DNA of 64,000 nucleotides from Flectonema sp. DT1601 (taxonomy: Eukaryota). This document shows, piece after piece, positions 830-42,881 of this stretch (position 1 is the stretch's first letter; each line of letters opens with the position of its first letter). Made by a program: the position numbers and the translations under genes. The notes under the pieces were generated by a model. That model saw only the letters and a list, made by a program, of their open reading frames with translations. It did not search any database and was not told where the DNA came from. The stretch is taken from the NCBI GenBank assembly GCA_964019425.1, contig OZ025795.1, forward strand, positions 186,001 to 250,000, read 5' to 3'.

Positions 830-3800
830 TTAATTTGATTGTGGTGTCGTCTCAGCTTTCAAGACGACATTTGACTCGAACGCAGTCTCTCCAGGGCTTT
901 CTTGCTTTAAAGTAGAAGCGCTGGGTGATACCAGCTGTTCGTTTGTTGGAGCAGTGCAGGGCCGTTCATCATCATCATCACCTTCCATCCAGTAGACGAA
1001 TCTTTTAGTTCCAACTGGATTAGTTGGATTAAACTCACTTAATTTATTAATATCGATAACCTGTTCAATGACTTCTATATTTCTCTGAGCTAAATACTCA
1101 TCTTCAGTAGCATCCTCAGGTGGTGGTGGGAGTGGTCCAGTATGAGTTTTAATATGTAGTTGTTGCTGTCCACGCATTTGAGCTAAAAGTTCTTTAGTTG
1201 CCAAGTGATGGCGGATGATTCCCCTTTTCGATTTACGTCTCTCTCCGGTATTTTCATTATAACTTCCGAATCTAATTGCCTTCTTAACTTTACCAACAGC
1301 ATCAGGTGGCATTTGAGATTTTCTAATTGAAGACGTGCGAGATCGGGATCGCCAAATTCTACTCGCATGTGAGTTACCTGGTGTGGGACTCTCATCCTCA
1401 TCAAAGGCTGACTCTTTTCGATATCGAAGATATTTCTTAATCGAAAATGCTGCCAAAACAGCCCCAGCAAAGACGGAAATACTAATAATAATAGTAGTCG
1501 ACTGCGTACTACTAACTCCACTAACCCTCTCACCAGATAAAATAACAGGTTCTTCAGGAGGTAGAACAAAGTCAGTAGACGATGGCATTGGAGTTGAGTC
1601 ATCAACAACTACTACGGGGATTAACTCTTCCATGAACGCGAGAGCGAATATACTAAAATGTGTTATTTGACATCCGTATGAAGTTTGTCTCAGTCCTGCA
1701 GGCATAATAAGAGGGTCAAGTCTGCTGGCTGATTCTATCCTTCCAACACCTACCCAGTCTCCCCATAGCCATGTTGAATCTTCCCAATAAACACAATTAT
1801 AAGATCTTCTGTAGTTTATATCAGAAGATAATGAGAACATTATAGTTGCTATTGGTTCACTAGTATTCATTGAAGCAACGTTAATGGGTACTTTAGTAGT
1901 CTGATCTCTTACTGAAATACTAATTATAGTTGATTCCAGTAACAGAGTGTGTGTCTTCCCATCAACACCTTGTATTGTGAATGATCGGTCAGCTCCTGGA
2001 TCGTAGCTGGCCATGATGAAATCGCCACCTAATGCTTTGGTAGGAAAATTTGCTGATGGATAAAGTGTTGTGTCTTGGAGTATGTATGATGTCTGACTTT
2101 GAAGTCGAGGAGTCACCCTAACATCAGTTGATGGTGTCTTCATACTGCTGGGTACTCTCATCAGAACTTCCTCTAAGAAAGATAGCCTCTCAGAATAGCT
2201 GCTTTTCTTTAGAGAAGTCTCAATCAAGGCTGATGCTATCTCTGTTGACAGAAGACTGTCTTGAACTTGATCCATTTCACTTTTAGTTATTTTATTAATC
2301 GCAATCCAAAGATAATTCGTTCTATTTTGATACAAGTCTGAAAGTACTGGTGATGGTGGTGATACACTCCTACCACATGATGGAAGAGCGAATGGTTGCT
2401 TCGCCATAATATTCATCTGTACTAATCCATCAAGAAGTAACATTGCGTAGTTTTTATTTGAAGCTTGTTGTAGTTCTTGTAGTATTTGATATAGGTCCTG
2501 TTGTTGTTATTGTTTTGTTTTGTTGTTTTTTGAAATAACAGTATAAAACTAACACGATTTAACATACGTCGAACACCGCAACTATAAATTCCCAATTCCA
2601 AAAAGCAGGTTTTAATCGTTGGCTTAGAAAAACAGTTGACAAAGCACAATCAACACCCAATAGAGTACCTGCCTGTAACTGTTGGTATAGCATTGGAAGA
2701 ATTTCCATTTCAGTAGTTGAATCGGATTGTTTTTGTAGTCGGAATTCAACTTCTGAACTCATCACTCTTACGATAACTGCTCCATGAGCATTTTGTACGA
2801 ATACTAAAAACTGAATAGTAGCATTGCTGTCTGTCACACTACAAGGAAGTACTGGTGCCGAAAAATTCGCAACAGGTTCACTTGTGTATCCGAATGTTCT
2901 TTTGTTGTTAATTGGAAGGGACGTCGTCTATTTTTATTATTATTATTTAAAAAAATTAATAATGAAAGAACCGAAAGAAAAAAAAAATATATATATAAAA
3001 AAAAAACATACCTGTCCAGAAGAAGTCACTATCACATACTCATATCGATAAAGTAAAGGTGGGTTATGATCCATCCAAAGCCCCGCATTTAACGTCACCA
3101 TTGTTGTTGTTTCTTGAAGGTAACACATTGCCATAACAGATTCTATGCGACACTCTGAAGTAGTGACTGTCGCTCCTGACACATATCGAGGAGCTTCTTT
3201 GATTTGTAATAAGAAGCCATCTTTTGCTACTGCCACGATGCCGTTGTATAGAGTCGCCTGTTTTAGATATTAGTTAAATGAAAATGATAACAAATAAAGA
3301 TGTTTGTTGTAAAATAAAATAATAAAAAAAAATCACAAACTTGTATAAAATATGAACACGTCGTTAAAATAGCATCAATCGATTCTTGTCCGTTTGGTGC
3401 TGGTTCTGGACAACGGAAGGCATTGCCAGCAAGTAAGACAGACATTTGGACTTCAGAAATAGAATCAAAGAGACCACTAGGTTGTGAGTTCCATTTAAAA
3501 GTGTATGTTCCAGATGGTAGTTGAGGTACGTTATTTATGACAGCATTCAGATTAAGTTGAAGTCCTTGCTGATGAAATGGAGGTTTCGATGGAATCGAAA
3601 CCACATAAGTAGGAGGAGCAACTGGATTGACAACATCACATGTTTGAGTTCTAAATGGAGACACACATTGACAAACACCCATTACAGTACATTCACCATG
3701 ACCAGAACAGGTTACTTCTGGTATACATGGGATGTTACAATTATTTGTATACCAGTTCTTATCACATATGCATTGAGCTGTTCCTGTTTCTATTGAACAG

Positions 3801-6800
3801 AATCCATGACCATTGCAATTACAGTTCGGTTCTATGCACCACTTCCCGGCCATACTTGTCCTGCAGATGCTTGTTTCTTGATTTTCACAATAGCTACCGT
3901 ACCAACCAGAGTAACAGATGCAGTGAGTGTCATCAGTACATAAACCATGACCTGTGCATTCTCTTAGAGATGGACAGAGTGATACAGATTCACAACGTGA
4001 TCCTCCATAACCTGGATAACACTTACAGTATGGATCAGAGAACTTAGTGTGATGTGATACTGCTACTACCCATTGATTCATATCAAAGAAACATTCTCCA
4101 TTAACACAAGACTCCAAACAGATTGGAGTAGAACACAATTCATCTTTCCACATTTGATCACAAGAACACTCTCCGTTAGTACACTCTCCATGACCATTAC
4201 AGTCGTCTAAATCAAAGCATTCAGATTGAAAGAAATGATCACTTTGATCATATTCAGGTATTTGATGAAAGTCTGAATTAAACGAAAGACTACACGACTC
4301 AGAACTATTTAACTCTTGAGGACATTTACAATAACCTACGGCACTACCACTGTCTGTTGGAGGAGGTACACAATAACCAGAGTACAAGCAATCTCTGGGA
4401 TGGCTGTTACAGTATTGAAATGATAAAATATACTCTGAAGCTGTGACTGATGAATCATTCAAAACAACAAAGTCTTGTTGACAACTCAACCTGTGATCGC
4501 TGTTTGTGATGTGATTGCATTCCATAACGATAGTAGCCTCAGGGAGATATCCTTCAACAGAGACCCGACTTACAGATTCGATTCTCAATGGAAGCAGGCT
4601 TTGATGAAGTTTATATAACTCACCCAAATCATGATAGTCAGCCCAAATATGTTTAAAAACCCTTCCACTGATTTCTGACACAATGTCATTAAATGGATTC
4701 CCATCAGGTGATCCAGCCAGTCCCGCGATGTCTGAAAATGAAGGAAGTCGAATTTGCAATAAAACATTAAAATAATAATATTGAAGTTCATTACTCCACA
4801 CGATTCCAATCTTTGATCTTAAAATTCCGACAATTTCAATGAAAAATACGATGTCAGTAAACCCAGGAACTGCATAAACGACAACTTCATTTCCATCAGA
4901 TGACATAAACCTTTTGTAACGCCATGAATATTCATCTGAATTCGGTAAGAACGGTTCGTTGTTGACGGTTATTTGCACTCGTCCCATTAAACATTGTGGT
5001 TTTTGGGTTCCAATGCAAACTTCGTTTGGTAATTTTGACCAAATTTTAACTGACGAAGACCCCACTGCGATAATAATTGAATCCGCGACCGATCTCTTTA
5101 TATTATGAAAATAGCGTTTAGAGACCTGGACTGTAAACTTTTGATCTGAATCGCTTTGAAGACTTCCTTCAGCGAGGAGGTATGCACCTTCTCCGTGGTG
5201 GACTATCTGGAGTCCATCCCAGGTTGTTAAATGTCCCAAACCGTGTATTGAAAAGTTTGCCCACACTGGAATGTCACACTTCTCTCCAATCCATTTTCTA
5301 TTGCAAAAACAAACAGCTAGATTGTGTTCATTTCTACCACAGAATCCATTTTTACTGCATTCCATTGGACATATTGGTATTCGACATTTTCCAAAGCGAT
5401 CTGTTGACCAATTCTCAAAACACAAACACTTCAAGTCAGGTAACAGTAATCCATTATAACAGGTAGTCACTCTATCACTGCAGGGACATGACTGCCTTCG
5501 AATAGACGAGTCTAATCGAAGTGTTGAATACAAACTTTGAAATAATCTATCAGAAGATACCTCTGACACCTCATCCACTAACTGTTGTACTCCTAAGAAT
5601 GCAACACATCTGAAGGTTGTGGCAATACAAGATAAGAATTCAGTATTACAATTAGCTACAGGTATCTCACAGTCTTGATAACATTTAAAAACTGAAGAGC
5701 AACACAACTTTGCTTCAGGTGAAATCCACTGATCACAAGATGGTAGAACGCTTTGTTCTAATGTTACTTTCATAACAAACGAACTAATAGGACACGGAGC
5801 TGCTACATACGGAGAAGGTAATTGAGAAGCAACAACTTGACCACCAGATACCTTACAAGGATGTAACAAAACATTAGCTAAAGATCCCAACACACAAGGA
5901 GCTCTGTACTGTGCGAGAAACTTCCATATGCTATCCCTTTGATGATTAACACACGTTGGATCACATCCACACTGTGATCTTGCTTGGTTATATGCTGCTT
6001 TATGATATGGAACCATGTTTGTGATGTACCACTCAACTGTTTCTTGAACTTTTCGTTCGTAAATTGCGACTTCGGTGTTATTGCAACAAGGATCTCCTTC
6101 ATCACAACATTTCTTTAATTGAGATAGTCGAGTAGTTCTCGAAACGTACTCTGAGTTTGAGTCTCTTGCCTGCTGCTGAATAAGTTCAGTTATGATATTC
6201 GAATCAGAAAAGTACATCAACATCGATTCCTGAAGACAACTTCCCATTTCATCTCGAGAGTATTGAGCTTCCAGAACACAAGCACATTGATAGTTACTTG
6301 TGAGGTCAGTAGTCATCCAATTCCACTGACCCCATTGTTGATTACAAACTACTACAGGATCTAATACAGGAATCGTTGCTGTTTTTATATAAATACTTTC
6401 AGAAGTACTAAACGTCGTCGTGTCGCTCGACGTCATTGTGTTGGTTGTTGTTACCGCCATCAGTTTCCTACCTCTTCTTTTAACTTCATCATCACCATCA
6501 TCATTATCGAGTGATAATTGTAAGCAATCATAATAAAGAGAATTATTAAATCCTAGTTCACTTATTTTAGAACAGTTTACAAAATTAACAGTTTCCATCC
6601 CTCGATCAGTAGTAGTTAACATCCTCAGCCTCTCTAACGGATGTATTGTTGAGAATCCAATGATGCAGTTTTTAAGTTTAAATATTTTTTTATATAACTG
6701 ACTGATGCCATGATTGGGAGCGCTGCAGACATGTTTCGGGGAACCTGTTGGGGAGTACGCTCCTGTGGAATAGTCTCCGGGGAGACATTCGTTTGTGACG

Positions 6801-9800
6801 CTGCACCAACCGCATCCGTGTGAATTTATACAGGAGTCGCATGTTTTGTAAATACCACAAATAGATGATTCGCAGTTTATTCCTGTCCAACCATCTGAAC
6901 AAATGCAAACTGATGGCTCACTGCAGAACCCATGACCGTAACACGTTCGTCCACCAGCACACACTGGGACAGTACAGTCAGAGCCATCCCATCCGTGGTC
7001 ACATTGACATTTTCTACTTTGTCGATTACAAATACCATTCGCACATGGGTATGGACACAGTGCTACTGATATATGCATTCCTGGTTCATCAGCTACAAGA
7101 CACTTCGTCATTTCACATTCAGTATATCCTGGGCCTATGCACTCAAATAAACAACCAGCTTTTGTTTGACAATTATCTGAGAAGTAACCCGGATAGCAGT
7201 TACAAACCTCTGGTAACACACAAATACCTCGTTGAGAACATTCATGTACACTGGGACATCTAGCGATGCAAGTTCCTGAGATCATTTCATACCCAGGAAG
7301 GCAATCGTTGCAGTCGAGTCCAGTGCTCGGATAGATACATTTCCTACAGAGATTAATATTAGCACATTGAGGGATGTCACATGCGACATAGCTGCAATCA
7401 GTGCACGTAGGACCTGAGAAGGGCTGACTGCACATGCAAAGTTGACTAGAAGCAGTCTGCATGATGTCATAGACGTATCTCATGAATGAAACGTAAGGAG
7501 TGAATCCCCATTGCAAGAAAATAGTTGCTCCGTTTACAAGATTCTCAACGATAATTCGTTCTTCTGTTTTGTAATGTTTTACTCCTTCGTAGTGATTTAT
7601 TGTTGACTTGTTGAATGTTGCGAAGTCGGTGTCGCTGATGTGAAATGGTACCACAGCGAGGTGGACTTGTGACATTCCTCCAGAAAATGCGTCGACTAGG
7701 CCACGTGCAGAATTTATTACTACGGAAATAACTGACTTCTGCCTTTTAAATATGAAAGGTTGATATCTAATTTCTGAAGAACGAGGTTCTGCTGAATAAC
7801 TGTAATTCCCTCCGAGTGAAACTGAAAATCGATTCGCTTTATCACTGGAACGACTCTCGTTAATAAATATTTGAAAAATTCCAAACTTCATCACGGAAGT
7901 TAAAACAAATTTTACACCACTGAGAGACAATGGCCAAACAGTAGTTTGGTTTCTAGCCGACAGCTGAATATCACTACAAGCAGCTGTTTCGTTTAAGCAG
8001 ATACGAAGCTTGCCATAACGATCAAATGTCTTTTTGGATTCAAAACCATTATTAGTTTTTAACAATCCAGGTCCTTCAGCAAAGTAGCTCACTCCGGTTG
8101 AGCTTTCATGTCGTAAATCTGCAGCAATTGCTAAATTTTCATTCATGTTTACACCTTTTGAAAAGTCTGGTTGAATAACTTGAGACAAACTAGCCATCTG
8201 AACATGAGCTGTGGTGGTACACTCTAAGGAAAAATAATCCAGTTTAAGTTCTCCACCATCAGCGATTTCAATTTTCAAGACGTTGTATTCTCCCCATAAC
8301 AGTGTTTTGTAAGGGATCTCTATTTCTGTATCTAAAAACTTCTTCGTCTTTGTGGCCATCACAATACCGTTTACGGAAATGACGACATGAACTTCAGCAA
8401 TCGGAGGTATAAATTTTAATATTAAAAAGAAATTTGATTGCGTTTCAGAAAACGCATCAGACTTTGTAGCATCACCATGACAAGGTGCTTGAGTAAATGA
8501 TTGATTCTGTTTATGAAAGCATAATGAAGATGATTCCCAACGACCACCGATATTTTGACAACTAGAAGGAGTTGATTGGTGAGTAACGTACTGACCGATA
8601 CCATCTGTTGATACTAACCAGCAGTATCCATGAGATGATTTCTCTGGAAGCACAAAGCCTAAAGACATTGGATTGAATTCATTAGCGTCAAGTCCTTCTC
8701 CTGTTTGTGATGATAAATTAACACCAGCGATTGCTGAAGGGATTGATTGCCTGGTCATCGTCACATTTCCAAAAAATGGACCCTGAGCTGCTGCTCTCAA
8801 TAGTGGTAATCCGAACTCTTTATTACTAGAATCCCATATACCAACTTCCCAAAGTAATCTATAAAACGAATTACTCGGATTTGAACAGGTTCCAGAACCT
8901 CCGTTAAACTTCGCCCCACATGATGAAGACGTGCACGCTGCTATGTCACAGTATCTCCCTCGATTTCCAGCAAAGCATTCACATTGTCCTGTTTTTTTTT
9001 TTTTTTTTGTATTTTGCTTGGCTACTAATTGGTTAATTTTACATAAATAAAACATACCAAGAGGAGTACATATACCATTACCTGAACATGTAAATAATTC
9101 ATGGCAGTATCTGTCGCAGTCTGGCCAGTTGAAGTAGTCATCAATACAGGTTTCACAGAGATCACCTGCCCGATTGCCATAGCAAATACACTTTCCTGAT
9201 AAATCACATGTTTCACTACCTGCACATCCACATGTTTGATCACATTGAGGAAATGGAAATTGTCGTAGATGACATGTCTCACACCAGTTTCCTCCAAAAC
9301 GACCACAATCTTGACAGTAAGCCGATTGAGTTTGACTGGCTATTTTAAAAGTGAATAGAAACAGTTGTTCAGCATAGTCTTCACTAATAGAGTCAGATCT
9401 ATAAATAACTAATGTGAGTGGGGTACCAGTTCCTGATTCTACCTCAGGTGTTTTAATATGCTCCGCATTACTAGTGTCCTGATCAACTGTTACACTAAAC
9501 ACATCAGAACTTCGAGCATTACCAATTGGATGCGACACAGAAAAAGCAATATCTTGACTAACACTTTTATGTTGTCGAAGCACACGAGTTGCAGTTGGAC
9601 ATGTAGGACGACCTCCTGTATCAAGATTACTTAAGATATCTTGTGCGATATATGGTCCAGCGAGTTTACCACCAAATTCTATCCAGACTGGAGGTCCAGA
9701 GTCGTTTTCAATATTTATAATAATTAAACTATCGTCTTTTAGTAGTGTTCCACTCCACACAATTGCTGTACTTGTTCCTATCGATATTGGTGATAATTTA

Positions 9801-12358
9801 ATACCATGTTGTAGTGGAATCTGTAGACACAGTTTATGAGTAGTACAGATGCTGATATTTCCAAAACCATCAAAAGTGTCACCAGGACCATTTAACCATA
9901 TTCCGTGAGTTGCTATTTTAGTGTCATCGTTATTTGGGTGGAGAGTTGGTTTGTTAGGTTTTCCCCAATAGTCAGGGTGATTCTCTTCAAGACTTGTGAG
10001 AGTTCCAAAGTACTCAGATGCTGATAAAGTTCCACTTCTACAGCTGCCTATACCGTTGCATTGTATCTCTGATGAGAAGCACGTTCTTTCTTCACAGCGC
10101 GGACCCTTAAAACCCGGTTTGCATTGACACTTACCTAGCCCGTTGCATTCTCCTCTCCCTAGACATGTTGTAAACCCGTTACAAAAAGTAGAACAATTCT
10201 GTGCTGGGTACCAGTTGGATTCACAAAGTTCGCACTCAACTCCTCGATACTGCTTTGGACATATACATCTCCCAACAGGATCACATTGTCCAAATCGACA
10301 TTTACAAGGTCTGGTGCAATCCCCAACAGGAAAAGCATATCTTCCCATTGGATGGTACTGTTGACAACGTCTGTTATTTTGTTATAATTTAATGAAACAA
10401 GACTATCAAACAGGATAGTCGACTGTAAATTATTAACAGAAAACAACATACTGACAATAAGGATCCGACTGATCTATATAAGCAATCCCGGCTGTTGTAT
10501 TTGAAACACATTGACACTTGAATTCTTTAACAGTAAAAAGGTTAGCCGCAGCGTACTCAACGGTGCTTTCGGGAGTGCCATCACCACCAAATATTATAAA
10601 GAGGTGGTGTGATAGAAGTGGTGCACCCATTGTAATCTCATTATCACCAAAATATGAAACACGAGATGATTTCATTGTTGATTCCTTACAATACGGTAAC
10701 CAATCAGCTAGATATCCAGGAACGATTGTATGAGATATGAATCGTGTTTTTCTAGAACTGTCTGTGGTGTACGATGCAGTTACAACAAATTTATGAGGTG
10801 TTGACCCCTTTCTGTGACCATAACTGGTGAAGTATAAATCAGACTTCGAGAGCCTCCTTGCATCAATATCTATAACTATTTCTATGTCCTTAACTCCACC
10901 TCTAGTATCAGAATCAGAAGCATAGTCTGCTATGTAGAGAAGTCTTGTTTTTTGTTTACTTTCACCAAAAGGAACATGTCGGATGTTGAACGCCGGATCC
11001 TCTGAGAACGTCAAGTTTAATTCCTGGTTTTCATGCACACCCGTTGCATTTGCTGTTACGAAGAATGCGTGTTCACCAATCCATCCACAGCTTATATTAT
11101 AAGAAGAAATTGGTCCAAAGTGTTCAGAGTCAAGAGAGACTATCTGTGACTGAACTTGACCAATAAAAGGCGAAGGTGATATCTCAAGAAGAATACAATG
11201 AAATGGAGATTCCTGCAGAACACCTCCAGTGATATCAGTCAAAGCTAAGTCACTTAAATCTAATTCTTCAGTATGTTCGTTATCAGGGCAAAGGTGAAAC
11301 CATCCAAAGGCATCTACTCCTGCAGCAGATGTGAATGAATACTTACTTGAGATGTAACTGTTATTCCGTAAAGGCATCCAATCCTGCTTTGCAGTTTTCA
11401 CGTCACCGCTATTGCTGTCAACGGTGCTCATCCAACGAACAGGTGACCAGTTTGGATCTGCTCTGCCTGCATTTCCGGATTCATGTAAAGATGTTGTTGT
11501 TCGATTTATGATATTATTTGTTATCGTACAGAGTCCCCATTCACCGCACTGCTTTGAACCGCAGATCGCTATTTGACAGAACCTTCCTGTGTAGCCTTCT
11601 TCGCATACGCATCTACGATCTTGACGAGCATCAGCCGTGTTTTCAGTGTGGATGAAACAATTACCTCTACCAAAACAAAAACAAGGCAAGTCTTCTAATT
11701 CTGATGCCGTAGCTGTGAAGGTTGGTGTCCTCCAAAACGTTGGTGTTGGTGGTCGAAGGGACAGCGAAACTGAATCGGTTTCCGTCAAAGAAAAACTATC
11801 AGTTGCAGTTAAAGAAGACGTAATCGATAAAGTATCAGTCGGCAGTAGTGAATTAGAATAAGTTGCTGTCCTTGAACCGAATATATTATCACTCTCTGGA
11901 TTGATATGAGCAAAGGGACTAATATAAGTCCCAGTGATGTTATTCCAAGTTGTTAACTGAAGTCGGTATTCTCCGTAGTCACCAAATGATGAAGGAGAAC
12001 TGAAATTTTGAATCTCAAGAAACAAATATGAAACAGTTACGTTTCCAAACTCATCATCAGTTTCAATAAACAAAGTGTCATCGTCCCAAGATGATGTTAT
12101 TCGTAAACAACATTGGTATGAATCAATTAAAGAAGTTATAGCAGTACCAGATATCGGATGATCAAAAGTTGAATTCGGAAATCGAATCGACACATTAAAA
12201 CTATCACTCACATCCTCACTAAAATTAACCATTAGACGAACAGCAAATTCTTCTTGCCAGAGACGGCTCTCGTCAGGAATCAAATCAAATCCGCTGATAG
12301 TCACACCTGAGAACACACCTATTGTTGTTGTTAATAACAACAATAATAATTTAATCAT
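830..12358 (-). CDS. Giant single-pass receptor (~3,700 aa): signal peptide, many EGF-like repeats, PSI, PLA2-like Cys module, VWD-like domain, GAIN/GPS, TM, cytosolic tail
   Basis: ORFs 10433-12499, 3263-10348, 2943-3236, 2559-2837 and 830-2443 join through GT-AG introns (e.g. 10371-10451, 8989-9057, 3258-3340). Signal peptide MIKLLLLLL; CxGxGxC repeats; GHLTTWDG (VWD); CVYW...GCQITHFSIFA (GPS); TM IIIISISVFAGAVLAAF. Confidence 0.8.
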
Positions 12359-12872
12359 CTTGATATCCACATTGATATAAAAAAGAGAGGGGATGCTGTG
12401 TGAGGGGAAAATATAAATTAGTTGAAAATAACCGTCGAAAAACATGAAGGAAAAAACAATAAATAACATGAATCGCAGGAGATACTGTTCTACTGCCATA
12501 TAACAACATCACTACACTAGGCAGTAGGTTATAACTTTATAAGGTAATTTTCTTTTTTTTTTTTTTTTTTTTTTTTTCACTTTATTTACATTCAATAAAG
12601 TGATTTTTTGTGTAAGTGTTGGAAGGAAACATCATTAATTTTCTTTCTTTTTTAATTAAAGCTATACATTAAAGAGGAGAGGTAGGTTTGTTTTTCACCT
12701 TTTTCAATTAGTGTAGACCCAGGAATGAGCTCACTAGTTAAAGGCAATATTAGTTTCTGCTTTTGGAAAAGAAGAGAGAAGAAAAAGAATTGATCTGCTT
12801 GTTGAATATACAAACAAATTGATTCATTATATACATATGTAGTTGAAGTGCTGTTTGGTTATCTTCTCTTTA

Positions 12873-31130: not shown

Positions 31131-34100
31131 TCACTTCGGAGGAGTTCTAGCAAAAGATACAACGTTAGCGGATGATGATCTGGTAAACACATTTCTTATA
31201 AAGGTGTCTCTTGTTACGAGATTTCCGTCGTTACCTCGTAGGAGGGGTGAAGAATCTCCTGTGAATCGGAGGACGTATTCACCAGTTTCACCAGTTTGGG
31301 TACCAGTAATATCTTTAGCGTTAAATGTCCAACCAGCTTCACTACTCCAAGCTTCACCATGACCAAGTGATAGTCTGTCAGCAGTAATCCAGTCTTGCAT
31401 AGTGTATCCGTCTTGTAAAAATTCCCCTCTTGTTTTTGCTGTTCCATCCCGAGGATCTTTTCGTCTCTCTTCTTGGTCTCTAATCTGATCCCATTCTTCG
31501 TTAAATTTATCTAAAATAAACGACACGACTAAATTCAAACCTGCCAATGCACCCAAAACCCAAAAAACAGTAAAATAAATCCGAGCAGTTCTGTCGGTTA
31601 CTGCTACGTAGCCTGCAACGTATGAGTTCCAATTGTTCATAATAAGACACGCGAATAACATTACAAAACCTGAGCTTTGATCATTAAAGTTCATCCACAC
31701 CCAGGGAGTCATATCATTCGGTGGCATTTCAGTGTTTATTTTGCCTCCAAAAATATCGGTTCCGAGGTAGGAGAAGAAATACATCAGAGCAAAGAACAAA
31801 ATTGAGACCTTCTTAGCGGTGGGAAGAGCAGCGATAAACGTAGAGAAGATTACTGAAAACCAAGGGAGAATAGCCAAAACACGAAGCAGACGAAGCATTC
31901 TTGCCATCACAACGAATTTCAATAAACGAGGATCCTCATAAGTATTAGGGTAAAGAAGTATAGTTCCAGTGACTAGGGCGAGTACCGCTACGAAGAAGTC
32001 AAATCTGTTTTGATAAGAAGCCCAATACCTCTTTAATCCGTATATTCCAACCTTTATTATTACTTCTAAGACGTATATTATAGTGAACACGTAGTCAATA
32101 CCAGTCTGCCAACCATATTTGGTTATTTCATTTACTGATCCTGTTAGGTATCCCCAAGTCTCTGCTACTACAAGGACACCATTTAAGACAACAATAACGT
32201 CTACGACGAGATCGAATATCGAAGAGGTCGGTGGGAATATTTTTATTTGTTTCCATTGAAACCACTTACGCGATTTAGTGACTTGTTCAGTGCTTACAGA
32301 TGCTGCTGACCAGTAGGACGCTCTCGTTGATTTTGATGATCTCTTGTTGTCTCTAAGCAACGGCGCTGTTTCTCCTTCTTCTTCATCATCTGCAACAACA
32401 ACTCGAGTTCCAAGTTCTGATGATGATGTTGCTGCTGAAATTCGATGTTTAGCTCTGAGACTAGCTTCATTGATTTCTTCATCTCTAACATAATCAGCGT
32501 AGGCATCAAAAAAGTGATCTGGGCTTAAAGCCTCTGGCAAGTCACTTCTATGTGGTAGAGCTATAGACTCATCGCTGATTGGATCATTTCCTCCTACTCC
32601 ACTTCTTAGGTATAATTGACAAGTATCAAAAAGTTGAAATGATGAAGTCACAGGATGCCATACATCACACATGTCGTTGTGAATACAAAAATCGAGAATT
32701 TTAAAACCTCGAAAACCAAACTCCGCTATCAAGTGAGGTGGTAGAGCTTCTTCAATTACTTGTTTAGCCATATCTGACACCTCGTCTAGTTTGGGCATTG
32801 AGGCGAAACGTAGTTCGACATTAAACACTTTTGACATGCCTGATGAGCTTGGAGACCTTCCAAAACCAGGAACTCGAACAGCAAAGAAAATACAAATATC
32901 AAAAGAAGTAAAGAAATCGAAACAAGGCCACGGATACCATATTGCAACAGGAGAGAAAGTTGGACTTGAAGAGAGAATGTTTCTCATCAACTGGAAAACT
33001 GTTGATTTCCAGAGTCTGGGAAACCATCTTTGTATTAAGACTAAGTCAACTCTATTGAATTCACAATTTAACAAAACTGGAAACCTTCGAAACTCTTTTC
33101 TTGAAACAGAATGATCACCATCTCTGTCCAACAAACCGAATATGATTGCGAATTCAGGCTGAGCAATATATCTCACGTGAAAGTTCTGATTCAATGCCTG
33201 ACATAACTCTTCCAACACAGATGATGAAATATATCTCTCTCCAGTAGCAAGATCTTTAGAGACAGCACAGCAATTAAAGGCTGCGTCAATTCCTTCTTCC
33301 CTATGACGAATCATGTCCTCAACATCTTGTCTCTTAGCATCCTGATAGGCGCTGTAGACAACACCAGTCAGTAAATTGATAAAAAAATAAATACCACCAA
33401 TTGTGAATATTAAAAAAAAGAAGAAATATAATCTAGTTTCTGCATAAGCGGGCATCATTACATCGGGGAAGTTATTAGTGGTGAGAAGGATTTGGAGGTT
33501 CCACATTGCTGAACCGAATTCATGAAAATACTGTTTACCTTCTTCTCCATCATTGGGAAACAAAACAACACCAAACCAAGCAAAAGCAATGCAGTAACAA
33601 GTTAGTAGCAGCAGGACTTTAAATAATTCCGGAAGAGTTTTTGTCAAGAATTTTAATTCTCTTCGTAGTTGTGGAGAGTACAATGCTACGAAAGCGATTC
33701 TGAAGTATGGAGAGAGTCGGAAATCACCTGCAGAACCGAAAATGTTGATAATCAGATCCAAGACACTAATGAACGCGACACTGCTGTGTACTATTCTTGC
33801 TGACCATCGAAGGAAGTACTTTGATCCCAGAACATGTAACCAAAGTGCTAAGTCAGACACAAGAACTGTTAAGCAAATCGCTTCGTAAATCTGTGAAGCA
33901 CGCCATCCAATGAAGTTAATTTCCCATGATGGATACACAGCGTGATTAGAACACCTTCCGTCACCTCTACACCAACGTGGGTCTTCAATGAATGTGAGAA
34001 CTGCAAGTGCGATAACAGCCAACCATCTTGGATAATATAACTTTTGACGTATTCTATTAGATCTGTGAGGACCTTTCATATCACGATAAGGTCTAATTGC

Positions 34101-34364
34101 ATTACATTCCATCGCATCTTGAATATACAACGCTGCTAAGGATACTTTTGGTATAGAGTCTACGGGTAAGGCAAATCTCCCATGTCCGACATGTAGTTGA
34201 TTGCTTTTATAAGTTCTTTTCAGTCCATGAAATGCATTTCCTGTATTAGCACCCCATACTGATGTTCTCTCACGTATTCCTGTGTTTCTCTGAAGCAGTG
34301 GTCTTGAAGGTTCGACCCCATCATATGGTGCGTCGCTAGTTGACGATGATACACTTACACTCAT
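31131..34364 (-). CDS. TPC1: Two-pore channel (TPC1-like) with EF-hand linker and inserted BILBO1-N-like domain
   Basis: LLTTNNFPDVMMPAY pore I; DRDGDHSVSRKEF EF-hand; S4 ARMLRLLRVL; LIMNNW pore II; two 6-TM repeats. Confidence 0.9.
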   Translation of the reverse strand: MSVSVSSSTSDAPYDGVEPSRPLLQRNTGIRERTSVWGANTGNAFHGLKRTYKSNQLHVGHGRFALPVDSIPKVSLAALYIQDAMECNAIRPYRDMKGPHRSNRIRQKLYYPRWLAVIALAVLTFIEDPRWCRGDGRCSNHAVYPSWEINFIGWRASQIYEAICLTVLVSDLALWLHVLGSKYFLRWSARIVHSSVAFISVLDLIINIFGSAGDFRLSPYFRIAFVALYSPQLRRELKFLTKTLPELFKVLLLLTCYCIAFAWFGVVLFPNDGEEGKQYFHEFGSAMWNLQILLTTNNFPDVMMPAYAETRLYFFFFLIFTIGGIYFFINLLTGVVYSAYQDAKRQDVEDMIRHREEGIDAAFNCCAVSKDLATGERYISSSVLEELCQALNQNFHVRYIAQPEFAIIFGLLDRDGDHSVSRKEFRRFPVLLNCEFNRVDLVLIQRWFPRLWKSTVFQLMRNILSSSPTFSPVAIWYPWPCFDFFTSFDICIFFAVRVPGFGRSPSSSGMSKVFNVELRFASMPKLDEVSDMAKQVIEEALPPHLIAEFGFRGFKILDFCIHNDMCDVWHPVTSSFQLFDTCQLYLRSGVGGNDPISDESIALPHRSDLPEALSPDHFFDAYADYVRDEEINEASLRAKHRISAATSSSELGTRVVVADDEEEGETAPLLRDNKRSSKSTRASYWSAASVSTEQVTKSRKWFQWKQIKIFPPTSSIFDLVVDVIVVLNGVLVVAETWGYLTGSVNEITKYGWQTGIDYVFTIIYVLEVIIKVGIYGLKRYWASYQNRFDFFVAVLALVTGTILLYPNTYEDPRLLKFVVMARMLRLLRVLAILPWFSVIFSTFIAALPTAKKVSILFFALMYFFSYLGTDIFGGKINTEMPPNDMTPWVWMNFNDQSSGFVMLFACLIMNNWNSYVAGYVAVTDRTARIYFTVFWVLGALAGLNLVVSFILDKFNEEWDQIRDQEERRKDPRDGTAKTRGEFLQDGYTMQDWITADRLSLGHGEAWSSEAGWTFNAKDITGTQTGETGEYVLRFTGDSSPLLRGNDGNLVTRDTFIRNVFTRSSSANVVSFARTPPK

Positions 34365-35035: not shown

Positions 35036-35764
35036 TTAGTTTTCAATGTAGATTACTGATCCATCAGTTATGTGAAGCTGTCCTAATATAACAAAGTCTG
35101 AGTCCAAAGGTAATTCGTTGAATGTTAAACGAACCTCCTGAGGTTTACATTGCTTCAACTCAGCAACAACCGAACGAAGCTTACAAACCTGCTCATGAAG
35201 ATGAATCGATGTTGTTAGTACTGAACCACTTCTAGATTTTATATAAATATTAGCTGGTTCATACTTTGTTGGAACGATAAACAGCAGAGATCCAGCGACC
35301 ACGTTGGCATCCGTGAGTGTCATGTGCTCTTCGATACAGTTACCTTCAAACATAACTTTATTAGGTTGTGGGATGTTAGTTGGGAATTTACCTTTGACTT
35401 CACTCAATTTTGATCCACCGTTTACATTAATTTCAATTGTTCTGTCTTCAGTTATTACTCTCATGTTAATCATAAATGAGTCGGTTTTTGGTGGAGATAA
35501 GATACTCGTAGATGCGGTGGAAGTTCTTAACTCACCAGCTCTCTTTACGATTTGTTTTTTTACCAAATTAGGAAGTTCACTTGGAAGGTCTTCGTTACAG
35601 TCGACTAACTTCAATGCGTCGAGTGATATCAACCCGCAACCTCTTAGTGAGGATTCCCATTCCGTTAGTCCCATCGCCTGAAGCTCATCAGTCAAACAGC
35701 TATCAGGCGACATTGTTGGGGCTGATGGAGCGCTTGCGTTTGGGTACTCATTTCCGTATCCCAT
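35036..35764 (-). CDS. Protein with a SAM-like region and two ubiquitin-like domains
   Basis: GLTEWESSLRGCGL SAM-like helix; INMRVITEDRTIEI... and IYIKSRSGSVLT...VRLTFNELPL...LHITDGSVIYI ubiquitin folds. Confidence 0.65.
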   Translation of the reverse strand: MGYGNEYPNASAPSAPTMSPDSCLTDELQAMGLTEWESSLRGCGLISLDALKLVDCNEDLPSELPNLVKKQIVKRAGELRTSTASTSILSPPKTDSFMINMRVITEDRTIEINVNGGSKLSEVKGKFPTNIPQPNKVMFEGNCIEEHMTLTDANVVAGSLLFIVPTKYEPANIYIKSRSGSVLTTSIHLHEQVCKLRSVVAELKQCKPQEVRLTFNELPLDSDFVILGQLHITDGSVIYIEN

Positions 35765-36449
35765 TTCGTTTTTTTGTTGTAAAACTCCTGTTTCAATAAT
35801 TAACTTCATCGTGTTCTATTGATTTCCGTAATAACTCGTTTTTTTTTTTTTTTTTTTTTTGAGATAGCATCTCTGTAAAACAAATCCAGAAAATAATAAT
35901 AAATAAATACCGCTTTAAAAAAAATACGACCGTTGTCTTTTTTTTTTTTTTTTTTTTTTTTCCTTCTTCGTAGTTAAAATAAATTAATTAACGAACAGAA
36001 TGAGTCTTTTTGATTAACAGGATTGAACTCACAGCATTTTTTCTTTTTTTTTCCAATTGAGTGTTAACAGACCAACGCGTACTAACTTAGTTAATCAAAA
36101 CAGTACAATCTCAATAGAAGCTTTTTGATCAGCCGCTGTGTTCTCGGATGATTTAAACAAACATACTTGATAAGTCAAATATTCTTCGTCTTATCACAAA
36201 AGTGATTGAAACAGACGTCTACCTCGATCAGTCGATAAGCCGAAGTTATTGCAAACACAATATTCGGCTACAAGTTAAAGTCTTCCATTCATATTTTAAT
36301 AAGAACAAGTTAAATAGCTCCGACCTAATGCAGAGAATCGTTACAATCGTTACAAACAACAATAACCTTCAGTCACACTCGAGTATCAGACGTCGTAAAA
36401 CAACAGCAGAGCTGTGAAACATTTTTCTCTTCATTAGAAGATATACAAC

Positions 36450-39955: not shown

Positions 39956-42881
39956 CTACGAGTCTAGAAAGTTCTGTGTTGGGTTGGTGTTGTTTTATTT
40001 ATTTATTTTTATATAACATAACAAATCTCAAACAGTAATGGCAAACCTTAATGTGGTCTGAGGCAGATGTTGTGGTGACTTCTCGCAATTCTGATAGAGA
40101 GTCGATCATTGAGTTGATGTCTTCTTTTAGTGGAATCCATCTCCTATGTTTGTTTAATTTATATATAAAAAATGTTTTTTTATATTTTTTAAAAACAATA
40201 ATAAAACAAACAAACCTATCAGTAGATGCCGTAATTTTTGTACTAATCGGAATTTCGTCAATATTTTTATTATTCGTCGGAGATGAGATGGTAATTGGTT
40301 CTATCAGGTCAGTTGGTAACATCGATTTCAAAACAGAAATTATTTGTATTCTCAATTCAAACAGTGTATTAGTTATAGACTTTGACTCATCTTGTTGAGA
40401 TTCTCTGAGTGAACTGCGAACCACATGTAAAAGTAATCCTTTCAGTGACACCATCAGAACGTCTCTATATTTATACGATTCAAAATCAACGTCTTTCGCA
40501 CCTGCTTCAAGAGCTTGTGCAACACCACGTGCTGCTAACGGAAGTGTAAGTGATGCTCGTGGAAATTTTGTTAGGGCTGAAAGGGCCCAACAAGCCTGTA
40601 TACGAACTTTAAAATTAACTTCTGTATGTAATATCACACACAATCTTGATACCAATCGTGCTAAAGACTCGATGCTGGCATCAGTCTGACGCAGGGTAGG
40701 GTTGCGGAATATTTGTGCTACAGCGTAAGCTGTATTCCAACGAACTTTAACGTTTGGGTCGTCAAATTCCATGAGAAGAGCCTGCAAGACTTCTTCAATT
40801 TTTCCCTCGTAGAGGAGGCCGCTGTTTCCGAGTGCTCGAACGACGTTCCAGGGAGTCTTACCATTATACTTTCCTAGTTGGTGGACACATGTGTGGACTA
40901 CTTTTGATATTATGTGTTGATCTCCAACTCCCATTGTCTCACGCATCTGATCACAGAATGACGCTATTGCCCAAGCAGCCTTCTGATGAAGACCTTGTTG
41001 ACTCACTTCAAACATACTTAATAATACATCCGCAACTACCTTTCGTCTTTCCATTATTCTTTTTGAAGGAGCCCAGCTTCCTAATACTCTCGCAACTGCT
41101 CCACGTGTGGCGGGATTACCAGAAGAAGAACTAATTACAATATCAAATAATGTACTAAATTCTGTTTCAGGAATAGAATCAAGTAACGAAGGTGGGATGT
41201 TTCCGAGAACAGCAATCGCATGACTTTTAACTGCGGCTACGGCATCATTACAAAGAGGAACGACAATAGAGAGCATAATTTTGATTAGAATTTTAGGCTT
41301 TCCAGCTAAGACACATCTGTTGGTGACCATTTCAGCTCCAGTTGGTCTTCGCTGAAGAGAACCAGCCTGAGTTATTGTATCTGACGAAGCACCTGGTGGT
41401 AGAATCGCTGGTCCAAAACAACTAAAATCAATAACAGGTATCTCATCACTTGATCCCAACACAGTTGGAACACCTTCCGAAACTGTACTTAGAAATGTTA
41501 AAGTAATCAACCTCGAAGTCTGATCAATCCCTTCTTGTAACACTCTTACTAAATCTAATAATGTTTCCCAATGTTTCTCAACTACTTCTGGATAGTTGTG
41601 TGCTGCTGCTGTCCATAACTTTATTGATTCGTATCTGTAAGCAACAGGAGATCCCTGTCTTGCTATAGAACAGGTCTGTTCATGAAGATAAGTACAAGTT
41701 TTGAAAGACAACTCCATCTCCGGAAAGGGTCTTTTTGTTCCAAGCATAGCAGCCAGTAGTTGGATTGCTGCGATGACGACTCCCTTTTCTCTTTGCAACG
41801 GACAAACCAACGCTGCAATCGTTGGTAGTAATTCAGAACAGCTTTTAGCTAAGTTAGGAAGTGAATGGAAGGGAGTAACATTTACAATTGCTTGTAAAAG
41901 ATGCAAGACTGCTGTCAGGTATTGAGGACTCGTATCTGGTTGTTTAACAGCAAACACTGCATTCACATGAGCCTGATACAAAATGCATCCTAATTTCTCA
42001 GAGTACGACATATAAGAACGTGCTTCAGACATTGGAGCTGCTTGAGTCATAATCTGTGTGGTATGTTCTATTAAGTGACATGCAGCATTACTTGCTTGTA
42101 TTCTTACTCTGTGTGAAGGATCGTACAACATCAGTCCCAACAGTGTTGAGTCACCAACACTTACATCATGTTCTGGTAATAGTGATAATGAATGAGCTAG
42201 GATTCCTTGTTTCTTCTTTGGAAAACATGATCTAAAGAATGTATTTAGTGAATTAATTGCATGATAACGTGTTTCTTCTTTAGAGTCTTCGTCTTCCCCA
42301 ACAGATTCCTTAGAAGGAGCAGTCAGAGTATAAGGTCTTAAAGTAGATAGCAGCTTCATGGTTTGCTCATCTGACAACGATGGACACCAAGCAAGTGAAA
42401 TACCTAAAGCTCTAAGAAGGATGGCACAATGTTTATCAGTTAAGTTTAGTTCGATTCTTTCTCTAATTAGTTGCATAGATTTAGTAACAGTTTCTTCACA
42501 AAGAGATGGTGATCGTCCTGCTAGTGTTGGTAGTTGAAGATCAATTCTATAGTCTTGAAGGAGGAGATTAACTTCACTGACAGCGTCTTCAGTGAATTGA
42601 CCTCCTCCGAGTAGAATTTGATCTGATTTGCTTATAATTGAACTTCCTCCTCCTCGAGATTTTCTTTTATCAGATCCGTTTGATCGATAACCGTCACTGC
42701 TGTAGTATCCTCTCTTGTCGTTAGGCTTTCCATCTCTCCAATTATCACTGTCCCAACCCGATTTCTTTACTGGCATTGGTCTTCCTGTCTTCTTTAAAAC
42801 TGTTTCTGCATCCACTACTTTAGCTTCACTTTCTTTCTCTTCTCTTGCTTTCCATTTTGGTTGCCACGAAGGTGTGGTCAT
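39956..42881 (-). CDS. HEAT repeat protein, HEATR6-like
   Basis: Motifs LMLYDPSHRVRIQA, SYSEKLG, NVKVRWNTAYA and NFKVRIQA as in the HEATR6 family. Introns at 40144-40215 and near 39974-40046. Confidence 0.75.

What the first reader, a model, noticed from the sequence alone, without database searches (positions are those of the whole stretch)
32600..32910. Two-pore channel with an inserted BILBO1 N-terminal-like domain
Between the EF-hand region and repeat II the protein reads KVFNVELRFASMPKLDEV...WHPVTSSFQLFDTCQLYL. This parallels the trypanosome BILBO1 NTD as I recall it (KVNFELSFPSRPSISEL...WVDLIREDQLTDYCQLYVF). BILBO1 builds the flagellar pocket collar, so this fusion could tether a cation channel to the pocket or feeding-apparatus cytoskeleton. 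I know of no TPC with this insertion.
Basis: partly seen in the sequence, partly recalled or inferred. Interest (0 to 1): 0.7.

Follow-up and report, generated by a model that had tools for sequence, protein, structure and literature searches.

The report
Two-pore channel with inserted BILBO1-type domain
A diplonemid two-pore ion channel carries, at the entrance to its second voltage sensor, a conserved insert whose sequence profile and predicted fold match the docking domain of the trypanosome flagellar-pocket scaffold BILBO1, and it likely uses this domain to grip a cytoskeletal partner, possibly at the cell's feeding apparatus.

Summary
Observation confirmed. ORF 31131-34364 (-) encodes a 1077-aa plant-type two-pore channel (TPC). 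It has a 246-aa insert at the IIS0/IIS1 junction: residues 470 and 717 both align to AtTPC1 F432. The insert is translated, because a complete Flectonema neradi transcript keeps it. It occurs in 4 of 17 aligned TPCs, which form one clade (99/99); the Namystynia sister sequence lacks it. Each copy alone scores below Pfam's BILBO1_N cut-off. A four-orthologue profile hits BILBO1 at E 6e-7. The predicted model's top matches are BILBO1/BILBO2 (Z about 10; next fold 6.5), including their C-terminal loop. Pocket residues W71 and Y87 are kept; F89 is lost in all four. Tethering is untested. In trypanosomes this domain binds microtubule-associated FPC4 but does not set localisation. Diplonema papillatum has 76 BILBO1-NTD proteins (PMC13615690); I could not see that list, which may include this channel. 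Four literature searches found no description of the fusion. Verdict: real, lineage-specific new architecture; docking role likely, location unknown.

The parts
31131..34364 (-). Uninterrupted ORF, 1077 aa, two-pore channel (TPC) of plant/algal type
   Evidence: two Ion_trans stretches, E 4e-49; AtTPC1 E 2e-63; Foldseek top hits are TPCs
33330..34037 (-). Repeat I (6 TM, aa about 110-345); filter I reads T-T-N-N; IS4 as in plant TPC1, whose VSD1 is voltage-insensitive
   Evidence: VSD1 statement from PMC8892357 passage
33093..33128 (-). EF-hand 2 loop (aa 413-424) with Asp at positions 1, 3, 5 and Glu at 12; EF-hand 1 looks degenerate
   Evidence: Pfam EF-hand_6 E=0.0076, below its curated cut-off; motif columns
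32217..32954 (-). 246-aa cytosolic insert (aa 471-716) at the IIS0/IIS1 junction
   Evidence: aa 470 and 717 both align to AtTPC1 F432; span F425-N728 is 245-313 aa in 4 insert TPCs, 56-71 in 12 others and 40 in one with a gap
32595..32903 (-). BILBO1-NTD-like beta-grasp core (aa 488-590); W569 = BILBO1 W71, Y585 = Y87, R587 in place of F89
   Evidence: 66 of 76 identical to Flectonema over aa 513-588
32484..32594 (-). C-terminal extension of the domain (aa 591-627), predicted to follow the path of the BILBO1 96-115 loop
   Evidence: VIA aligns model 8-147 to 6SJQ 1-115; pLDDT 39-68 here; 16 of 37 identical to Flectonema over aa 589-625
32280..32483 (-). Poorly conserved, predicted disordered linker (aa 628-695)
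   Evidence: 33 of 69 identical to Flectonema, 9 of 42 and 7 of 43 to the distant orthologues; pLDDT under 50 over 636-715
32217..32279 (-). Trp-containing segment ending in a conserved P-P-T-S motif just before IIS1 (aa 696-716)
   Evidence: Alignment A2, motif in 4 of 4 insert orthologues
31485..32216 (-). Repeat II (aa 717-960). IIS4 keeps K816, R822, R825, R828 (AtTPC1 R531, R537, R540, R543). Filter II is M909-N910-N911 (AtTPC1 M629-G630-N631). Luminal Ca2+ ligands D454 and E528 are replaced by Y739 and R813
   Evidence: Alignment to AtTPC1 chain 7tbg; residue roles from PMC8892357 passages

Best explanation
This gene encodes a two-pore channel, predicted to be voltage- and calcium-gated, with a BILBO1-type ubiquitin-fold domain inserted just before the first helix of its second voltage sensor, and the domain likely acts as a peptide-docking site that links the channel-bearing membrane to a microtubule-associated partner, possibly around the feeding apparatus. 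Shown by sequence and computation: TPC identity, position and translation of the insert, homology to BILBO1/BILBO2 N-terminal domains, conservation in four orthologues. Inferred from family knowledge: homodimer, cytosolic position of the insert, voltage sensing by repeat II, Ca2+ binding at EF-hand 2, loss of luminal Ca2+ inhibition. Inferred and untested: binding of an extended FPC4-like peptide through the W569/Y585 pocket (about 0.7), that the partner is cytoskeletal (about 0.45), and that the channel lies at the cytopharynx, pocket or forming food vacuoles (about 0.35). The insert most simply arose once, after the split from Hemistasiidae, from the expanded BILBOD family; loss in Namystynia is not excluded.
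For: Insert position and retention in a transcript. The domain core is as conserved as the channel between this species and Flectonema (87% against 84% and 91% for repeats I and II) while the linker is 48%, which points to selection on the domain. Columns invariant across four inserts include N, L, F, P, W, Q, C, Q that match BILBO1. Foldseek E 9e-6 to 2e-5 for the three best chains, all BILBO; VIA Z 10.3, rmsd 3.7, 105 aligned to 6SJQ, next non-BILBO Z 6.5. W71 is kept in 4 of 4 and an aromatic at Y87 in 4 of 4; W71A abolishes FPC4 binding (10.1101/738153). FPC4 binds microtubules. Both D. papillatum BILBOD proteins tagged so far gave signal at or around the feeding apparatus. The Namystynia sister channel has a PDZ domain in its C-tail instead, in line with this lineage acquiring docking modules.
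Against: No localisation or binding data exist for this channel in what I could read. F89 is replaced by R, R, S, M; in BILBO2 the F88A mutation abolishes FPC4 binding. Y64 is Tyr in only 1 of 4. Trypanosome N-terminal domains are reported not to drive localisation. The channel lacks the coiled coil and leucine zipper that build and target BILBO1 polymers. Plant and animal TPCs are vacuolar or lysosomal. The domain model is low in confidence (mean pLDDT 56.6), and in the full-length model residues 543-607 fall under pLDDT 50. No single copy passes the Pfam cut-off, and the D. papillatum copy has no BILBO1_N hit at E 10 or better.
Confidence: 0.45

Rival explanations
1. The domain docks a soluble regulator, or transmits pull from a bound partner, and changes gating rather than location, since it is attached at the start of the helix bundle that senses voltage.
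For: The insert sits exactly at IIS1. AtTPC1 VSD2 moves laterally as a rigid body during activation (PMC8892357). Two of the three luminal Ca2+ inhibitory ligands are lost, so regulation has been rewired. Trypanosome N-terminal domains are not localisation signals.
Against: A roughly 70-aa variable linker separates the domain from IIS1 on its C-terminal side, which would damp mechanical coupling. The only partner of this domain that I read of is the cytoskeletal FPC4.
Confidence: 0.27
2. The domain is a folded but repurposed passenger: its FPC4-type pocket has decayed and it packs on the channel's own cytosolic parts or serves folding or trafficking.
For: F89 is lost in 4 of 4 and Y64 in 3 of 4. 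Distant orthologues share only 28-38% in the domain against 47-55% in the channel repeats.
Against: The Trp that gates the pocket in BILBO1 is invariant. The BILBO-specific wrap-around loop is predicted to be kept. The core is 87% identical to Flectonema.
Confidence: 0.24
3. The segment is an unspliced intron, a nested gene or a chance resemblance to BILBO1.
For: Single-sequence scores are weak. A pyrimidine-rich stretch and an ATG (M510) precede the strand-2 motif. Of 11 in-frame GT/GC..AG pairs, 3 would restore a normal linker length. No RNA from this organism was examined.
Against: A complete Trinity ORF from Flectonema keeps the whole insert. M510 is not conserved. The insert occupies the same site in four orthologues. 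It has no stops in frame, against 11 and 24 in the other two frames, and contains 0 of the 8 A-run acceptor-like sites found on this strand. Profile E 6e-7.
Confidence: 0.04

Closest known systems
Arabidopsis thaliana TPC1 (PDB 5E1J, 5DQQ, 7TBG)
   Same: Two 6-TM repeats, EF-hand linker, IIS0 helix, all four IIS4 basic residues, filter II Met; E 2e-63; top Foldseek hits.
   Different: 246-aa insert at F432; EF-hand 1 degenerate; Asn at G630 as in animal TPCs; D454 and E528 not kept; longer conserved C-tail.
Trypanosoma brucei BILBO1 and BILBO2 N-terminal domains (PF18281; PDB 2MEK, 6SJQ, 7A1I)
   Same: Beta-grasp fold with the long C-terminal loop (Z 10.3 and 10.2); W71 and Y87 equivalents; N-x-x-L-x-F, P, Q-x-x-x-x-C-Q motifs.
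   Different: Internal insert in a 12-TM channel rather than the N-terminus of a soluble scaffold; no coiled coil or leucine zipper; longer strand 1-2 loop; F89 lost.
Diplonema papillatum BILBOD1-76 (PMC13615690)
   Same: Diplonemid proteins with similarity to the BILBO1 N-terminal domain; two were localised at or around the feeding apparatus.
   Different: The paper's main text has no occurrence of 'two-pore' or 'channel'. All 22 BILBO1-hit rows visible in the cut proteomics table of PMC12697944 are listed with no TM domain. The figshare list of 76 was not seen.
Namystynia karyoxenos TPC (EukProt EP01062 P039177, P0005)
   Same: Sister to the four insert channels, support 100/99.
   Different: No insert (span 59 aa); a PDZ domain in the C-tail instead, above the Pfam cut-off.

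Membership tests
Two-pore channels (TPC) | Two tandem 6-TM Ion_trans repeats in one chain, closest to TPCs | tested here: met
Two-pore channels (TPC) | TPC-type filters (T-T-x-N-x-P-D; x-x-N-W) | tested here: met
   Filter I T-T-N-N-F-P-D and filter II M-N-N-W
Plant-type voltage/Ca2+-gated TPC | Gating charges on IIS4 | tested here: met
   K816, R822, R825, R828 align to R531, R537, R540, R543
Plant-type voltage/Ca2+-gated TPC | Cytosolic EF-hands able to bind Ca2+ | tested here: inconclusive
   EF-hand 2 has canonical acidic ligands but scores below the Pfam cut-off; EF-hand 1 is degenerate
Plant-type voltage/Ca2+-gated TPC | Luminal inhibitory Ca2+ site D240/D454/E528 | tested here: not met
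   D454 is Tyr739 and E528 is Arg813; an Asp aligns with D240
Two-pore channels (TPC) | Dimeric cation conductance on acidic organelles | not testable with these tools
   Needs electrophysiology and localisation
BILBO1 N-terminal domain family (PF18281) | Pfam gathering score of 28.3 bits | tested here: not met
   Window copy 16.1 bits at best; 12.9 and 24.9 bits for P0002 and P0003 as whole proteins; 3 of 4 inserts hit, none shown above cut-off, P0004 no hit
BILBO1 N-terminal domain family (PF18281) | Sequence homology by profile, specific to BILBO among ubiquitin-like folds | tested here: met
   E 6.4e-7, 7.3e-7 and 0.0078; no other ubiquitin-like protein among 4 hits at E 10 or better
BILBO1 N-terminal domain family (PF18281) | Five-strand, one-helix ubiquitin fold plus wrap-around C-terminal loop | tested here: met
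   Predicted model only, mean pLDDT 56.6; Z 10.3, rmsd 3.7, 105 aligned, spanning 6SJQ 1-115
BILBO1 N-terminal domain family (PF18281) | Aromatic pocket W71, Y87, F89 | tested here: inconclusive
   W 4 of 4, aromatic at 87 in 4 of 4, aromatic at 89 in 0 of 4
BILBO1 N-terminal domain family (PF18281) | Binds FPC4 or an FPC4-like peptide | not testable with these tools
   No FPC4 or diplonemid partner sequence was available to the complex tool
BILBO1 scaffold protein (whole) | N-terminal domain, then EF-hands, coiled coil and leucine zipper; forms polymers | tested here: not met
   The protein is a channel; the EF-hands precede the domain and belong to the TPC linker

The most novel reading that the evidence does not exclude
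Diplonemidae evolved a cytoskeleton-anchored two-pore channel: a BILBO-type domain at the foot of the voltage sensor clips the channel onto feeding-apparatus microtubules through an FPC4-like adaptor, so that position or tension of the cytopharynx controls local cation or Ca2+ release during prey ingestion. This would be the first BILBO domain known in a membrane protein and a direct link between the euglenozoan collar toolkit and ion signalling.
Probability: 0.17. Interest if true: 0.82.

Novelty: new variant of a known kind. Interest (0 to 1): 0.55.

Why it matters
Diplonemids are abundant marine predators whose feeding mechanism is only now being mapped, and D. papillatum is genetically tractable. 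A channel carrying a domain from the flagellar-pocket scaffold family is a concrete, taggable candidate for coupling ion flux to the feeding cytoskeleton. It suggests the BILBO1 N-terminal domain is a mobile docking module rather than only a collar component. It also shows that the IIS0/IIS1 junction of a two-pore channel, short in all 13 other TPCs aligned here, tolerates a 190-255 residue insert next to the voltage sensor.

Tried and rejected
No genome is held for this window, so paralogue and BILBOD counts for this species were not possible. No sequencing run was listed, which says nothing on expression. The 50%-representative search with 168 residues of the insert returned only the query. 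The search for longer proteins with the insert profile returned only the four channels and no BILBO1 or BILBOD protein (the tool calls this weak evidence), so the donor paralogue was not identified. The metagenome scan confirmed 0 of 163 pattern matches. ESM Atlas gave no usable hit for aa 486-610; requests for the D. papillatum protein did not complete. Complex prediction of the EF-hand region with the domain gave no answer (score 0.00, single sequences used) and is not used as evidence. The wide VIA search did not run. No second copy of the domain lies in the window. The stored part of the proteomics table of PMC12697944 has no row for a two-pore channel, but the file was cut. Earlier findings of the scan: nothing by sequence or place, and 8 unrelated notes by words. 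Rejected: intron, nested gene starting at M510, generic PB1/UBX domain (Z 6.5 or less against about 10 for BILBO), and an extra TM helix in the insert (maximum 19-residue hydropathy 0.85-1.4, centred on predicted strand 1 in the window copy, against 1.75-2.09 for the repeat II helices, though one reference TM scored only 1.04).

Full report
Observation. The region lies in one uninterrupted ORF, 31131-34364 on the minus strand, 1077 aa. Pfam finds two Ion_trans stretches (E 4e-49) and a weak EF-hand. Among solved structures the best matches are Arabidopsis TPC1 chains (E 2e-63). Residue 470 and residue 717 both align to AtTPC1 F432, so aa 471-716 are a clean 246-residue insert at the junction of helix IIS0 and IIS1. 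From TPC topology (established knowledge) this position is cytosolic.

Organism and orthologues. The closest relative is a complete Trinity ORF from Flectonema neradi (P0002, 1082 aa, 81% identical), a member of Diplonemidae, so the window is most likely from a diplonemid of that family. A profile search gave 18 proteins. Three besides the query carry the insert: P0002, an unnamed ENA protein P0003 (organism not known) and D. papillatum KAJ9441142.1 (P0004). I aligned 17 of the 18, leaving out P0018, which has three Ion_trans stretches. The distance from F425 to N728 is 245-313 aa in the four, 56-71 in 12 others and 40 in one with a gap. A tree of the channel core without the insert groups the four (99/99) and puts Namystynia karyoxenos (Hemistasiidae), which lacks the insert, as their sister (100/99). 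One gain after that split is the simplest reading. Sampling is thin, only the best 8,000 or so candidates were scored, and loss in Namystynia is not excluded.

It is translated. The Flectonema transcript keeps the whole insert. Against Flectonema the domain core is 66 of 76 identical, repeat I 201 of 240, repeat II 221 of 244 and the following linker 33 of 69. The Met before the strand-2 motif is not conserved, which argues against a nested gene. Three of 11 in-frame GT/GC..AG pairs could restore a normal linker length, but each would cut into conserved flanking sequence, and none of the 8 A-run acceptor-like sites on this strand is in the insert. No RNA of this species was seen; no run was listed.

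It is BILBO-like. Alone, the window copy is weak (Pfam E 0.014, 16.1 bits against 28.3; PDB E 0.31). Three of four inserts hit BILBO1_N, best E 4e-6, and the D. papillatum copy does not. A profile built only from the four channel inserts hits 2MEK (6.4e-7), 6SJQ (7.3e-7) and the BILBO2 chain 7A1I (0.0078), with one unrelated hit at E 1.3. An AlphaFold2 model from the same four rows, without templates, has a beta-grasp order of elements but low confidence (pLDDT 56.6). Its four best Foldseek matches are BILBO2 and BILBO1 chains. VIA gives Z 10.3 (rmsd 3.7, 105 aligned) to 6SJQ and Z 10.2 (rmsd 3.3, 103 aligned) to 7A1I, then Z 6.5 or less for PB1, UBX and similar folds; the NMR model 2MEK scores 5.8. 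The aligned range reaches BILBO1 residue 115, the wrap-around loop described as unique to this domain (10.1101/738153, parts 1-3 of 5 read). AlphaFold2 may have seen 2MEK in training (recalled). In the full-length model the second half of the domain was poorly predicted. So the insert is a divergent homologue that fails the Pfam threshold.

Pocket. In BILBO1, W71, Y87 and F89 bind FPC4; W71A and Y87A/F89A abolish binding, and F88A does so in BILBO2 (PMC8360560 passages). Counting from the 2MEK alignment, the channel copies keep W in 4 of 4 and Y/F at 87 in 4 of 4, but have R, R, S, M at 89 and H, H, Y, L at 64. The pocket is half kept, so the ligand is likely not a close FPC4 copy.

Channel. 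IIS4 keeps all four basic residues of AtTPC1. EF-hand 2 has canonical ligands and EF-hand 1 does not. Two of three luminal Ca2+ ligands are lost. Filter II has Met at M629 but Asn at G630; these two residues set non-selectivity in plants (PMC8892357 passage), so selectivity cannot be called and may be intermediate.

Mechanism. I favour a docking role towards a microtubule-associated partner (0.45). FPC4, the partner described for this domain, binds microtubules. In D. papillatum the family has 76 members, and both tagged ones gave feeding-apparatus signal, one also in cytoplasmic circles (PMC13615690 passages). Against this, trypanosome N-terminal domains are reported not to determine localisation, bind at 2.4-6 uM and are poorly retained after extraction, and TPCs are usually vacuolar or lysosomal. 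A gating role is the main rival (0.27): the insert is at the foot of VSD2, which moves as a body during activation. A repurposed domain with a decayed pocket is third (0.24).

Novelty. Searches for 'two-pore channel' + 'diplonem', 'BILBO1' + 'domain' + 'ion channel' + 'diplonema', 'two-pore' + 'papillatum' and 'BILBO1' + 'two-pore' returned 0 papers in an open-access library. PMC13615690 does not mention a channel in its main text; in its two held supplements 'channel' occurs four times, and the two places shown refer to the microscope phase channel. Its list of 76 proteins is on figshare and was not seen, and it may contain this gene. In PMC12697944 (abstract and supplement searches) all 22 visible BILBO1-hit rows have no TM domain and no TPC row was found, but the file was cut. 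PMC3194816 and PMC7312350 were read as passages only. Both parts are known and the combination appears undescribed: a new variant of a known kind, interest 0.55.

Noticed in passing
window 31365-31472 (-), aa 965-1000: The C-tail carries a conserved block (R-x-D-P-x-D...K-T-x-x-x-F...G-x-T-x-x-D-W) in the four insert channels, 44-83% identical pairwise, with no Pfam hit. Namystynia has a PDZ domain at the same site and P0006 has neither. This may be a second small interaction module.
   Followed up: partly
P0003, between predicted strands 1 and 2 of the domain: This orthologue has a further insert of about 45-55 residues inside the BILBO-like domain, so the strand 1-2 loop varies from a few residues (D. 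papillatum) to about 70.
   Followed up: no
P0004 filters: The D. papillatum orthologue has altered filters (T-G-N-N and L-N-G-W) compared with the other diplonemid copies, so its selectivity may differ.
   Followed up: no
window 830-61129: 17 of 18 ORFs of 150 aa or more lie on the minus strand, in keeping with euglenozoan directional gene clusters; some apparent intron ends are long A-runs followed by AG.
   Followed up: no
window 35036-35809 (-): 257-aa protein with two ubiquitin-like stretches (PF00240 E 1e-8), two genes upstream of the channel; no sign that it is related to the insert.
   Followed up: partly
window 39999-42881 (-): HEAT-repeat protein with DUF4042 (E 2e-23), resembling HEATR6 (name recalled); its last part seems to read through an intron.
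   Followed up: partly
window 3263-12499 (-): Large cysteine-rich EGF/tenascin-like surface protein ORFs (2361 aa and 688 aa), probably exons of one gene; label from reading the sequence, not from a call.
   Followed up: no
PMC3194816 passages: That survey found TPC homologues only in Schistosoma and Toxoplasma among the parasites searched, not in Trypanosoma or Leishmania, so the organisms where BILBO1 is studied appear to lack the channel.
   Followed up: no
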